Shown here piece after piece: positions 3,181 through 58,730 of a DNA stretch of 64,000 nucleotides. Numbering within the stretch: position 1 is the first letter of the stretch; each line of letters opens with the position of its first letter. Location: the NCBI GenBank assembly GCA_964016885.1, contig OZ024746.1, positions 39,990,001-40,054,000 of the forward strand. Direction: 5' to 3'. The notes under the pieces are model-generated. The model made no database searches, was not told where the DNA came from, and worked only from the letters and a program-made list of their open reading frames with translations. This stretch comes from Eledone cirrhosa (lineage: Eukaryota). A program made the translations under genes and the position numbers.

Positions 3181-3860
3181 ATATAAGTATGTACACGTAC
3201 ATACATATATGTATACAGACGTACAGTAGTATGTATATATACATACATACATGCACACATATATATATGTACGTATGGATTCACCGAACATTTATTATAA
3301 TGCTCGGTGTGTTTGTAAACAAACATCCCGTATTAAGCCGTACTGTACAGCAACCATCGTTGCTCGTTTGTTCAACACTGACAAAGGAACGCTGTACTAG
3401 TTTCAAGCTTATTAGCTATCGTCAGCAACGTATACCTTCCTGCCAGATTGTTGAACATATATACTTACCTTATGCATATTAACGGCTGAGTAGCCCAATT
3501 TGCATATCGAGTGGGTTAATCGGCCGGGTGCACCGAAAACGATAAACGGAAAAATGAAACGAAATTTAGTACAGCGAAATTTAGTACAGCGTTCCTTTGT
3601 CAGTGTTGAACAAACGAGCAACGATGGTTGCTGGACAGTACGGCTTAATACGGGATGTTTGCTTTCAAACACACCGAGCATTATAATAAATGTTCGGTGA
3701 ATCCATACGTACATATATATATGTGTGCATGTATGTATATATATATACATACTACTGTACGTCTGTATACATATATGTATGTACGTGTACATACTTATAT
3801 TTAAGTAACAGCCGTACTAAGAGTGGGAAATGAAATTTCGTTTCATTTTTTCCGTTTATA
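3181..3860. mobile_element. HHR-bearing Penelope-like/retrozyme element, family 1 (divergent inverted arms in (TA)n)
   Basis: About 3183-3400 is inverted relative to about 3580-3800; homologous to 13500-14550; TA tracts on both sides. Confidence 0.7.
3390..3430 (-). ncRNA. Minimal type-I hammerhead ribozyme (family 1)
   Basis: CGTTG CTGACGA TAGCT aata AGCTT GAAA CTAG TA CAGCG; canonical core, palindromic stem III ACTAGT. Confidence 0.9.
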
Positions 3861-3915
3861 TATATATATATATATATATATATATATATATATATATATA
3901 TATATATATATATAT

Positions 3916-4078
3916 ATAATTGAATATAAAATAAATATAAACACAGATATAAACATATATGTGTTCAAATCGTAAGGGACCAGATTCGCTTGGGTGAAAA
4001 AATACTAACTATTAACAATATTGTTTGAACACATATATGTTTATATCTGTGTTTATATTTCTTTTATATTCAATTATA
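3916..4078. repeat. ~55-bp inverted repeat inside a TA-flanked insert
   Basis: ATAATTGAATATAAA..GTGTTCAAA versus TTTGAACAC..TTTATATTCAATTAT. Confidence 0.85.
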
Positions 4079-4326
4079 TTACACGGCTCAGAAAAACCTC
4101 TTTCTTTGAGCTATTGTAAGAGACTATTTTGAGTTTCTAACTCAATGTATACCTCTGATATATATATATATATATATATATATATATATATATATATATA
4201 TATATATATATATATATATATATATATATATATATATATATATATATATATATATATATATATATATATATATATATATATATATATATATATATATATA
4301 TATATATATATATATATATATATATA

Positions 4327-4460
4327 TAACAAAGAAAGTGTGGTAAGAAACCAGGTGGATCATAACACACCAAAGTACTCGATACTTAAGGTAGTAGAGT
4401 GAATAATAGGAAAAGAGTCAGGACCCCGACGGCTGAGCTCCGGCCGTTTCGACAGCTAGA
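4327..4460 (-). mobile_element. TA-inserted repeat family 2, diverged copy with 3' half of an HHR-like fold
   Basis: Homologous to 8247-8428, 28806-29060, 52405-53545 and 58626-58730. Confidence 0.7.
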
Positions 4461-5259
4461 TCCAAAAGTAACCTTAAAAGGCCCATCGAGTTTTGTTTGT
4501 ACCCTAAATACATTATATGAAGGCGGACCTGTCAACTCTCCCTGTTCAACGGGTTACACGATTTGAGGATTTTAGAGAATCTTTGGGGTGGGTGAAAGAT
4601 GTCTTTTGTGAAAATGGATATAACTTTCATTATGTAAAATCTCCCCATTTTGCCTTATTTCTCCTCGTTTGGAGGCACTTTTTTTTCATTGTACTCCCCG
4701 TTAGAGGTTGCAGGTCTGTGAAGACACATTTTGAAGCTGTGCCCCCCATGATCCACGTACGATGGGCAGGACGTGGTCATATCTGTGTTTATGTGTGAAT
4801 GTGGCACACTCTCTAAAAGAAAGTAGAGAGTTGTAATGAATCATAGCATCATCAATGTACACTTCATTAATTTCTAAATGCTGAAAAAGAAAATCGATGG
4901 AAAGGAAAGACATTCATACTTTCTTTACTAAGTTTATAAATCAATGTTTGTTTGTGTGAGCATGTGTGTGTCCGAGATAAAGAGCAAGGAAAAATATGTG
5001 TATATATACGTGTGTGTGTGTTAGTGTTTCTATCTGTAGTGGCATTGTTATCGACAGCAAACAGATGACCGGTTAAAGTTAAGCGGAGATTTATGACTTT
5101 CCCTTCATTTCTAACTTACGTTCAATCAAATAAATTCGTGATTTCTTTAGTCTATTTTCAGTTCTAACATTAAGCAGAAACAGTTCCAATTTCATGAAGT
5201 AGTTTAATCAATGACAGTTTATTGAATGTTGGAAGATGATGGTTTGAATGCTGTAAGAA

Positions 5260-56900: not shown

Positions 56901-57328
56901 CAGGGTCCCTGTCTATGAGTTCTGTCAAGGTTGATTATGCAGGTCACTAACTTGTGGTCTGAATAGCCAACCATGCGCATTTTTGGACAACTTAAAAAGT
57001 CATTATCCTTAATTCTAACTAAGAACCTATCTAGGTACGACCTAGATGATCCGCTACGATTTGCCCAAGTCCAGGTTGGCGCAGTCGGAAAATCTAGTCG
57101 ATATCTATCGGCCAGGTCAAATCGACCGATTAACCCTTTGAGGCTATTACACCCCTCTCTATCGGGACAGGCCCCTACGTAGTCCCAGCGTGCATCTAGG
57201 ATACCATTCCAGTCCCCCACTAATAGCAAGGAGCGGGACGTCCCTAGAAAAGTCTCCAGACGATGGAAGAAGTCCGGCCGCATTGACCCGAAAGGGCCGT
57301 AGGCGGCTACCAACCTAAACGCTCCGCC
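53931..57328 (-). mobile_element. Tx1-clade copy F, truncated within the endonuclease, ORF otherwise open
   Basis: ORF 54197-57328 close to A ORF2 (YADD, CCHC); the N-terminal 37 aa in the track are microsatellite artefact. Confidence 0.93.
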
Positions 57329-58169
57329 TATAGATAGGTAGCTACATACATACATACATACATACATACATACATACATACATACATACATACATACATA
57401 CATACATACATACATACATACAGCACGGCGCGACAAGCATATTTTTTATATATACAGGCCATTTCTCTCTCACTTTCTCTCTCTCTCTCTCTCTCTCTCT
57501 CTCTCTCTCTCTCTCTCTCTCTCTCTCTCTATCTATCTATCTATCTCTATCTATCTATCTATCTATCTATCCCTCTCTCACTCTCTCTCTCTCTCTCTCT
57601 CTCTCTCTCTCTCTCTCTCTCTCTCTCTCTCTCTCTCTCTCTCTCTCTCTCTCTCTCTCTCTCTCTCTCTCACTCTCTCTCCTTCTAAAAACAAAACAAT
57701 TCTCAGCGTTTACTTTAAGTCAACTAATAAACAAAACAGCAAGGAGTCTCCAGTACTTTTATAGAGATTTGATTTTGATCTTACTTGAATATAATGAAAC
57801 TAAAAACGTCTGCTACATGAATCAAAACGTCTGTATCAAACTAATTTATCTCAATAAAAGGTTAATAATCATATACAGATAATAAGGGCTTTAATATTAC
57901 ATTACATAAACTAACGTGGAAAAGATATATTAGATAAAACTGTGCCAAAACCATATATACTTTATTATTATTAAAGTACAAAAGAACTCGACAAAACTAT
58001 CACAGATTCAAATGAATATTGATTATAGTAATAAAACAATTAATTAAATTTCATAAAACTGAAAAAACAAAATCTGTTGAAAGTATATAAGAGAGATGAA
58101 GCCAGATAGTATTAGCTGAACAAAGTTTTATAAACTAACAAGTTGTACTTGATCGTCTCGCTACTGTTT

Positions 58170-58500
58170 GTTATGGTGATGGTGATGATGATGATGGTGG
58201 TGATAATGATGATGGTGATGATGATGGTGGTGATAATGATGATGATGATGATGATGATGGTGGTGGTGGTGGTGATGATGATGGTGGTGGTGATGATGGT
58301 GGTGGTGATGATGATGATGATGAATATGATAATGATGATGATTGTGGTGGTGGTAGTGGTGGTGGTGGTGGCGGCGGTGGTGGTGGTGATGATGATGATG
58401 ATGATGATGATGATGATGATGATGATGATGATTGTGGTGGTGGGATGGTGGTGGTGGTGGTGGTGGTGGTGGTGGTGGTGATAATGATGGTAATAATTCA
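58170..58500. repeat. (GAT/GGT)n microsatellite
   Basis: Direct reading. Confidence 0.95.
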
Positions 58501-58625
58501 TCATTTTGTAAAAATAAATTACTCAAATTACAAGATATATAGATTTTCATCACTACCAATGGGGGACGTTGACTAGTAAAATCGGGAGAGCGTCGGGTAA
58601 TATGTGTATATATATGTATATATAT

Positions 58626-58730
58626 AACGAAGGAAATGTGGTAAGGAACCAGGTGGACCATAACGCACCAAAGTACTCAATACTTAGGGTAGTAGAGTGG
58701 GTAATAGGAACCAGTAAAACTGGTTCCTAT
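58626..58730. mobile_element. TA-inserted family 2 short hairpin copy
   Basis: AACGAAGGAAATGTGG..AGGAACCAGT aaa ACTGGTTCCT. Confidence 0.8.

What the first reader, a model, noticed from the sequence alone, without database searches (positions are those of the whole stretch)
3181..58730. Every two-armed insert has the same divergent polarity: 3' ends outward toward (TA)n
Seen: using the HHR or half-HHR to define sense, the left arm is minus and the right arm plus at 3390/3586, 8247-8428, 12046/12274, 13763/14295, 14829/15700, 16957/17187, 20903/21671, 28806 and 52641. The short family-2 hairpins at 29005, 52405 and 58626 follow the same rule. Arms end at variable internal TA dinucleotides. Inference: (TA)n is self-complementary, so both strands may prime reverse transcription and the two 5'-truncated cDNAs are then joined. 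That would be a palindrome-generating insertion mechanism. Inverted pLTRs are known for PLEs, but the uniformity here is striking.
Basis: partly seen in the sequence, partly recalled or inferred. Interest (0 to 1): 0.75.

Follow-up and report, generated by a model that had tools for sequence, protein, structure and literature searches.

The report
Penelope insertions primed from both strands
These mirror-image inserts in TA repeats are stub-sized insertions of Penelope-like jumping genes, always joined head-to-head, and their ends indicate that each was likely built from two separate DNA copies, one started on each cut strand at its own fixed spot in the RNA and likely run to the RNA's capped start, which would explain how this poorly understood class makes its inverted ends.

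Summary
Polarity confirmed: all 12 listed inserts are head-to-head. Genome-wide, one family gives 5,726 head-to-head versus 16 tail-to-tail pairs at gaps up to 60 nt. They are 3' stubs of Penelope-like elements (PLEs); family 2 has Hydra-clade hallmarks. Head-to-head polarity, (TA)n targeting and the one-sided tail are published. Arm ends are not variable: 105 of 111 paired family-2 inserts have one arm ending at a fixed site 1 and the other at a fixed site 2, 80 nt further. Inner ends pile up about 30 nt after a TATA-like box. A non-templated G precedes that base (3,045 versus 599 A), on either arm and on both arms in 8 inspected inserts. In 38 of 75 inserts the tail-less arm reaches further 5', and 167 pattern hits show tail stubs too short to overlap the partner arm. 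This fits two cDNAs primed on both nicked strands that run off a capped RNA and are end-joined; it does not fit the published self-priming model. No long reads, empty alleles or RNA ends were seen. The scan found this before on other DNA (e1-9550100, e1-10326545, e1-8021559, e1-10280452).

The parts
3186..3856 (.). Family 1 (about 436-nt tandem-unit, non-coding, HHR-bearing) two-armed insert: left arm minus 3186-3581 ending at site 1, right arm plus 3582-3795 plus tail 3796-3856; 15-nt duplication across the junction (3560-3591). The tail-less arm reaches further 5'.
3919..4157 (.).
4329..4458 (-). Family-2-related tail-bearing arm; no partner found
8248..8425 (.). Family 2: left arm to site 1, right arm to site 2 (80-nt tail); perfect centre on self-complementary AATT
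11596..11799 (.). Family-5 subfamily insert whose arms do not overlap: tail-only left arm (minus) joined to a right arm ending near site 1; not a palindrome
11847..12348 (.). Family 3: tail 11847-11982 on the left arm; arms 11983-12165 and 12166-12348
13436..13480 (.). 45-nt non-overlapping two-armed stub (site-1 piece minus, tail-end piece plus) of another family
13504..14547 (.). Family 1: both arms longer than one tandem unit; tail on the left arm only
14792..15898 (.). Family 4: left arm ends at site 1 and continues into the 676-nt spacer; right arm 15637-15807 plus 91-nt tail
15964..16135 (.). Unlisted two-armed insert with a 39-nt one-sided tail; polarity not determined
16821..17291 (.). 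Family 5: 94-nt tail on the left arm; arms 16915-17100 and 17106-17291
20863..21867 (.). Family 6: arms 20863-21213 and 21420-21767, 100-nt tail on the right; Rfam Hammerhead_1 hits at 20909-20953 (-) and 21677-21721 (+)
28807..28988 (.). Family 2: site-1 arm left, site-2 arm right
29007..29058 (.). Family 2 mini insert: left arm from a mid-tail site; right arm starts at the predicted hammerhead cut (after GTC) and ends at site 1. Tail-to-tail with the 28807 insert across TA 28989-29006
52407..52481 (.). Family 2, non-overlapping arms: 19-nt tail-end stub (minus) joined by a 2-nt microhomology to an arm running from the predicted transcription start to site 1
52643..52849 (.). Family 2: site-1 arm left, site-2 arm right; right end not at (TA)n. 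Tail-to-tail with the 52407 insert across TA 52482-52642
58627..58727 (.). Family 2: tail-bearing left arm, about 11-nt right arm ending at site 1

Best explanation
The inserts are head-to-head stubs of endonuclease-bearing Penelope-like retrotransposons, likely made by twin target-primed reverse transcription: the element's protein would nick both strands of (TA)n, each 3' end would prime at its own fixed site in the element RNA (site 1 and site 2), both cDNAs would run to the RNA's predicted capped 5' end, and the two would then be joined end to end. Shown: PLE origin, polarity, two fixed 3' ends with one per arm, a sharp 5' edge 29-32 nt after a TATA-like box in three families, an extra G at that edge on either or both arms, and varied junctions. 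Inferred: that the edge is the transcription start, that the G comes from the cap, the nicking and priming steps (by analogy with PAc in vitro), and the joining step (host end-joining or an RT jump; not resolved). Transcripts starting in the pLTR put the two priming sites about 57 and 137 nt from the cap, hence the roughly 200-nt stubs; read-through tandem transcripts would give the long inserts and the scattered 5' ends of family 1.
For: PLE identity: full copy in L061 with inverted truncated copy + pLTR-ORF-pLTR and Hydra motifs. One arm per site: 105 of 111 paired inserts, none with two site-1 arms; a family-specific one-sided tail recurs in other families. Two independent cDNAs: the site-1 arm reaches further 5' in 38 of 75 inserts, the tail arm in 23, tie 14; 167 tail stubs too short to overlap their partner, and 29 of 30 inspected partners end at or beside site 1. 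Short site-1 arms are similarly frequent: 314 hits, about 40% internal jumps in the first 36 read by eye, as expected if truncation counts from the priming site rather than from the centre. 5' edge: 129 of 150 ends at -25..-10; 38 of 41 family-8 arms stop within 1 nt of the A that follows TATAAATA by 29-32 nt, the other 3 being the long template copies; raw-read depth falls about 5-fold across that base in three RAD runs. Cap-like G: 3,045 G vs 599 A before the edge, both non-templated; on site-1 arms 18, tail arms 25, unclassified 6 of 49; both arms in 8 inserts with 0-5 nt between. PAc cleaves and extends both strands from two internal start sites (PMC11167929).
Against: No RNA 5'-end data. 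A clear TATA at -30 was not seen for four other families. 10 of the 49 extra Gs can be read as the partner arm's last base, and in my sample the G excess at -18 was modest (11 of 20 vs 38 of 130, p = 0.04). Some arms reach -19 to -25, beyond the proposed start. 74 of 296 arms were left unpaired by the script and some are truly single-armed. 168 of 277 inverted repeats had no motif to set polarity, and one was called tail-to-tail without TA by a loose motif (L118). One RNA versus two is unresolved: arms share subfamily haplotypes (37 of 46 vs 10.6 shuffled) but only 2 rare variants are shared against 110 unshared. PAc showed no primer-template homology, whereas here both sites are followed by TAT.
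Confidence: 0.78

Rival explanations
1. Fold-back or self-priming: one cDNA (or an antisense template, as proposed in PMC3846280) folds back and copies itself; the tail arises at resolution, and later deletions make the centres asymmetric.
For: Arms come from the same subfamily; 38 of 47 junctions without inserted bases show at least 1 nt of microhomology (an upper bound); centre deletion in palindromes is established (recalled).
Against: It requires the tail arm to reach at least as far 5', but the reverse holds in 38 of 75. Non-overlapping arms need one-sided deletions of about 100 nt yet are about as common as short site-1 arms. The extra G occurs on site-1 arms whose partner is truncated (L204, L214, L222, L225) and on both arms with 0-2 nt between them, too little for a primed loop.
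Confidence: 0.1
2. The palindromes are non-autonomous mini-elements (MITE- or retrozyme-like) copied as ready-made units from a few palindromic masters.
For: Some junctions recur in several places; family 1 is a tandem HHR unit like a non-LTR retrozyme.
Against: Junctions are highly diverse and the same junction occurs in different subfamilies; short and long inserts obey the same two-site rule.
Confidence: 0.05
3. One reading: the self-complementarity of (TA)n is what allows both strands to prime, at variable internal TA positions.
For: Almost all outer ends abut (TA)n, and both start sites are followed by TAT.
Against: Ends are two fixed sites. The same architecture is published with ordinary target duplications (PMC3846280). 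The 52643 insert ends outside (TA)n on one side.
Confidence: 0.06
4. Fold-back artefacts of sequencing or assembly.
For: No long reads were examined; no window locus was confirmed end to end.
Against: Arms differ by independent mutations (61 of 90 pairs differ within 48 nt); one-sided tails of fixed length; strand-switch joints at the same positions in raw short reads of three other samples.
Confidence: 0.01

Closest known systems
Hydra clade of C-terminal EN+ Penelope-like elements (Craig et al. 2021, PMC8557442)
   Same: Family-2 ORF of about 720 aa with RWR, DKT, YRDD, CxCX5C linker, no CCHH, CxxC and CxH around E..N; (TA)n target; HHR-like motif in the pLTR
   Different: The family-2 hammerhead core is degenerate and split by the predicted start site; most copies are about 200-nt stubs present in tens of thousands; no tree was built
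Canonical EN+ PLE insertion unit: inverted 5'-truncated copy, partial tandem, optional tail (PMC3846280, PMC8557442)
   Same: Head-to-head polarity, tail on one end, microhomology or palindrome at the joint; L061 is the textbook unit
   Different: Tails are 40-150 nt, not 30-40; the tail is on exactly one arm as a rule; those papers propose self-priming on an antisense template and endonuclease resolution, which the arm statistics here do not fit
PAc (Poseidon, Anolis) in vitro (Frangieh et al. 2024, PMC11167929)
   Same: Both strands cleaved and extended; two internal RT start sites bound the tail; predicted dimer
   Different: In the parts read, it does not link the two sites to the two arms of inverted insertions or to run-off at a cap; it found no primer-template homology
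L1 twin priming (Ostertag and Kazazian 2001; recalled, not read)
   Same: Both target strands prime and two cDNAs are joined head-to-head with microhomology
   Different: In L1 it is a minority outcome with a poly(A) primer and a variable second site, and arms barely overlap; here it is the default, both sites are fixed, and arms usually overlap up to the cap
Non-LTR retrozymes (bioRxiv 10.64898/2026.07.22.740005)
   Same: Family 1 is a tandem HHR-bearing non-coding unit
   Different: Here it inserts with the same two-arm, one-tail rule as autonomous PLEs; the parts of the preprint read do not describe this

Membership tests
EN+ Penelope-like element | Single ORF with RT and GIY-YIG-type endonuclease on the arm's sense strand | tested here: met
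   L061 and L051 ORFs with YRDD and VIY..YIG; Pfam finds no family in them, so this rests on motifs
EN+ Penelope-like element | Partial tandem forming pLTRs, with an adjacent inverted 5'-truncated copy | tested here: met
   L061
EN+ Penelope-like element | Tail on one end | tested here: met
EN+ Penelope-like element | Hammerhead motif in the pLTR | tested here: inconclusive
   Rfam hit below gathering score for family 6 only; core motifs in others; family-2 core degenerate; cleavage untested
EN+ Penelope-like element | Target-site duplication | not testable with these tools
   Hidden in (TA)n; no empty allele seen
Hydra clade | RWK motif present, GxKF/Y absent | tested here: met
   RWR at the equivalent place, no GxKF/Y
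Hydra clade | DKT instead of DKG | tested here: met
Hydra clade | CxCX5C linker; no CCHH in the endonuclease; CxxC and CxH flanking E and N | tested here: met
   against PMC8557442
Hydra clade | Phylogenetic placement with Hydra RTs | not tested
   No reference sequences held
Neptune clade | CX2-5CxxC linker and CCHH endonuclease | tested here: not met
   (family 2)
Penelope/Poseidon clade (L056-type ORF, upstream of a family-3 copy in L072) | GxKF, DKG, CCHH, no linker finger | tested here: met
   Pfam RVT_1 2.9e-15. The link to window family 3 rests on one locus
MITE | Symmetric terminal inverted repeats and uniform copies | tested here: not met
   One-sided tails and varied junctions
Twin-primed insertion | Two independent cDNAs (non-overlapping arms; either arm may be longer) | tested here: met
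Twin-primed insertion | Both primings on one RNA molecule | tested here: inconclusive

The most novel reading that the evidence does not exclude
Twin priming is the normal integration route of EN+ PLEs across clades: a dimeric RNP primes both nicked strands at two programmed RNA sites, each RT runs off the m7G cap adding a C, and the cDNAs are sealed head-to-head, possibly by the RT jumping onto its partner's cDNA. The inverted pLTR and the tail would be two traces of one reaction, and tens of thousands of stubs would record the element's germline transcription start at base resolution.
Probability: 0.55. Interest if true: 0.72.

Novelty: new variant of a known kind. Interest (0 to 1): 0.52.

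Why it matters
How PLEs form inverted repeats and tails is named as an open problem in PMC8557442 and is left as unvalidated steps in PMC11167929. The stubs give a large natural read-out that favours two-strand priming over the published self-priming model, and they make sharp predictions for the existing in vitro system. They also show that at least 20,000 short palindromes in this genome (14,755 + 5,726 exact-pattern hits in two families) are insertion by-products that repeat annotation could misfile as MITEs or miRNA-like hairpins.

Tried and rejected
DNA search of the own genome with a family-2 arm found nothing because common words are skipped; patterns were used instead. Rfam miRNA hits below threshold are hairpin and microsatellite noise. 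Pfam did not recognise the family-2 ORF. Neptune assignment: my first guess, rejected on motifs. Fold-back at hammerhead stem II: rejected, because centres lie 10-25 nt upstream of GAAAC in family 2 and upstream of CTGAnGA in family 8. Hammerhead cleavage as the main 5' end: only a few arms start at +23/+24. Shared A-to-G variants as proof of a single RNA: not found (0 of 2 shared variants). RAD reads cannot show symmetric family-2 centres because reads end en masse at the AATT in the centre. Contig runs X6 and X4 gave no joints of use, and X6's kind is unknown, so it is no evidence on RNA. Empty alleles and long reads were not examined. The near-place look-up of earlier findings was empty. 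18793-19631 is a TIR element, not part of this system.

Full report
Observation. The window lies at G000:C6:39990001-40054000 of a 3.0-Gb, (TA)n-rich animal genome. A masked self-comparison finds every listed insert as a local inverted repeat between (TA)n runs. With CTGAnGA...GAAA or its 3' half as sense, the left arm is minus and the right arm plus in all 12. Rfam supports only the 20863 insert, below gathering score. Two tail-to-tail pairs also exist in the window, each across a (TA)n run between neighbouring inserts. Four unlisted two-armed inserts were found, two of them without any arm overlap.

What they are. Family 2 (8248, 28807, 29007, 52407, 52643, 58627) has 33,297 exact matches of a 27-nt core. 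[quoted passage not shown] L061 is a complete unit: inverted truncated copy, partial tandem, pLTR-ORF-pLTR. Its protein meets the Hydra-clade motif list of PMC8557442; no tree was built. PLE ORF pieces lie upstream on the sense strand of copies of two other window families, one of Penelope/Poseidon type. Family 1 is a non-coding tandem unit of about 436 nt.

Polarity. I scanned 121 sequences (1.264 Mb: the window, 80 evenly spaced 10-kb stretches, 40 stretches picked on the family-2 core) and found 277 inverted repeats. Of these, 109 carried a motif that sets sense. Without (TA)n at the centre: 87 head-to-head, 1 tail-to-tail (L118, a loose motif call), 2 ambiguous. With (TA)n at the centre: 6, 9 and 4. 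Genome-wide, a family not present in the window list (family 8) gives 5,726 head-to-head and 16 tail-to-tail pairs at gaps of 0-60 nt; neighbours across longer TA runs are not counted. Family 2 has 14,755 head-to-head cores with 5-35 nt between.

Outer ends are fixed. Taking the G of GAAAC as 0, family-2 arms end at +39 (site 1) or +119 (site 2), each followed by TAT in the template. Of 296 arms, 222 paired into 111 inserts: 105 had one arm of each class (6 of these site-1 calls rest on alignments that stop early), 5 had one mid-tail or irregular end, 1 had two site-2 arms, and none had two site-1 arms. The 74 unpaired arms include long inserts, very short partners, diverged subfamilies and true single arms; I did not classify them all. 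Other families show one arm flush with (TA)n and a family-specific tail of 40-150 nt on the other. Raw RAD reads of three samples show loose TA ends at the same two sites.

Two cDNAs, not one fold-back. A single tail-primed cDNA copying itself needs the tail arm to reach at least as far 5'. In 75 inserts (the 30 from loci chosen for short tail arms left out) the site-1 arm reaches further in 38, the tail arm in 23, and 14 tie; in evenly spaced loci alone the counts are 8, 4 and 2. A pattern for tail arms of at most about 45 nt joined to an arm starting at the 5' edge has 167 hits; in 29 of 30 inspected, the partner ends at or beside site 1. The mirror class has 314 hits, about 40% of them internal jumps in the first 36 read by eye. 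Similar counts fit truncation measured from the priming site; deletion from the centre would need about 100 nt in one class and 15-45 nt in the other.

Inner ends mark a predicted capped start. 129 of 150 family-2 5' ends lie at -25..-10. A TATTTAAA box sits 29 nt before the A at -18, in TTAGTC or TCAGTC. In family 8, TATAAATA lies 29-32 nt before the edge in four long copies, and 38 of 41 arms stop within 1 nt of it; raw-read depth drops from about 2,850 to 570 across it in X21, and similarly in X22 and X23. A third family shows the same 30-nt spacing; four others show no clear TATA. The template base before A(-18) is T or C, yet G occurs there 3,045 times against 599 for A. Among 49 such arms in 40 fetched stretches, 18 are site-1 arms, 25 tail arms and 6 unclassified; 10 Gs could belong to the partner arm. 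Eight inserts, picked from the listing for this, have the G on both arms with 0-5 nt between. 16 of the first 100 G arms have a G partner, against a rough per-arm rate of 9%. Reverse transcriptases adding C opposite an m7G cap is recalled knowledge.

Joining. Of 75 junctions, 38 show microhomology (inflated by multi-template matching), 9 are blunt and 28 have inserted bases, several copied from nearby sequence. This resembles polymerase-theta end-joining (recalled); an RT jump onto the partner cDNA is not excluded. Arms share subfamily haplotypes (37 of 46 vs 10.6 shuffled; one mismatch is probably a mis-pairing by my script), but rare variants are not shared (2 vs 110). So the two cDNAs come from one source, one or two RNA molecules, and the arms then aged separately, which also argues against assembly artefacts.

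What is known. PMC3846280 (parts 1-4 of 5 read) calls head-to-head the most frequent arrangement and proposes self-priming on an antisense template. PMC8557442 (passages and one part of nine) describes the inverted copy, the tail, (TA)n targeting and a start site in the pLTR, and ascribes the tail to endonuclease resolution. PMC11167929 (outline, parts 1-2 of 4 and a term search) shows both strands cleaved and extended and two start sites bounding the tail. Also seen: PMC4209133 and PMC13282606 (passages) and bioRxiv 10.64898/2026.07.22.740005 (parts 1-2 of 5). Seven searches showed no paper that assigns one start site to each arm or ties the joint to the cap. Subscription papers, including older PLE reviews, and all supplements were not seen and may bear on this.

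Earlier notes. My twin-priming and start-site reading preceded the look-up. The notes supplied the Hydra and cap leads, which I then tested here. They are not independent support.

Verdict. The value lies in the arm statistics, which favour two-strand priming at two fixed sites with run-off at a capped start (confidence 0.78). Interest 0.52.

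Noticed in passing
window 18793-19631: Element with 108-nt terminal inverted repeats (98%) and an internal part that looks like a decayed mariner-type transposase (label recalled)
   Followed up: partly
window 36367-47530 and 54197-57445: Cluster of L1/Tx1-like LINE copies on the minus strand (endonuclease-RT ORFs up to 1153 aa, ORF1-like 592 aa) beside (TAGA)n; label recalled
   Followed up: no
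window 29076-29541: RTE-like LINE 3' fragment next to the 29007 mini insert
   Followed up: no
L026:1692-1769: Raw reads show head-to-tail joints of a 76-78 nt unit holding the whole family-8 hammerhead motif: a very short tandem, retrozyme-like form
   Followed up: no
L031, L084 and hits: Recurrent internal skip between the two copies of a 7-nt direct repeat flanking hammerhead stem III, probably an RT template jump
   Followed up: partly
G000:C3:89.5-90.3 Mb: Five inserts with an identical junction within 0.8 Mb, probably local duplications
   Followed up: no
G000:C1:91473201-91493774: Five tandem family-2 units 3.54 kb apart followed by an inverted one
   Followed up: no
window 31016-32045, 33011-33826: 46-nt minisatellite (22 copies) and (AATAT)n arrays
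   Followed up: no
window 52850-52934 and 53285-53368: 85-nt direct repeat starting exactly at the non-TA end of the 52643 insert; unexplained
   Followed up: no
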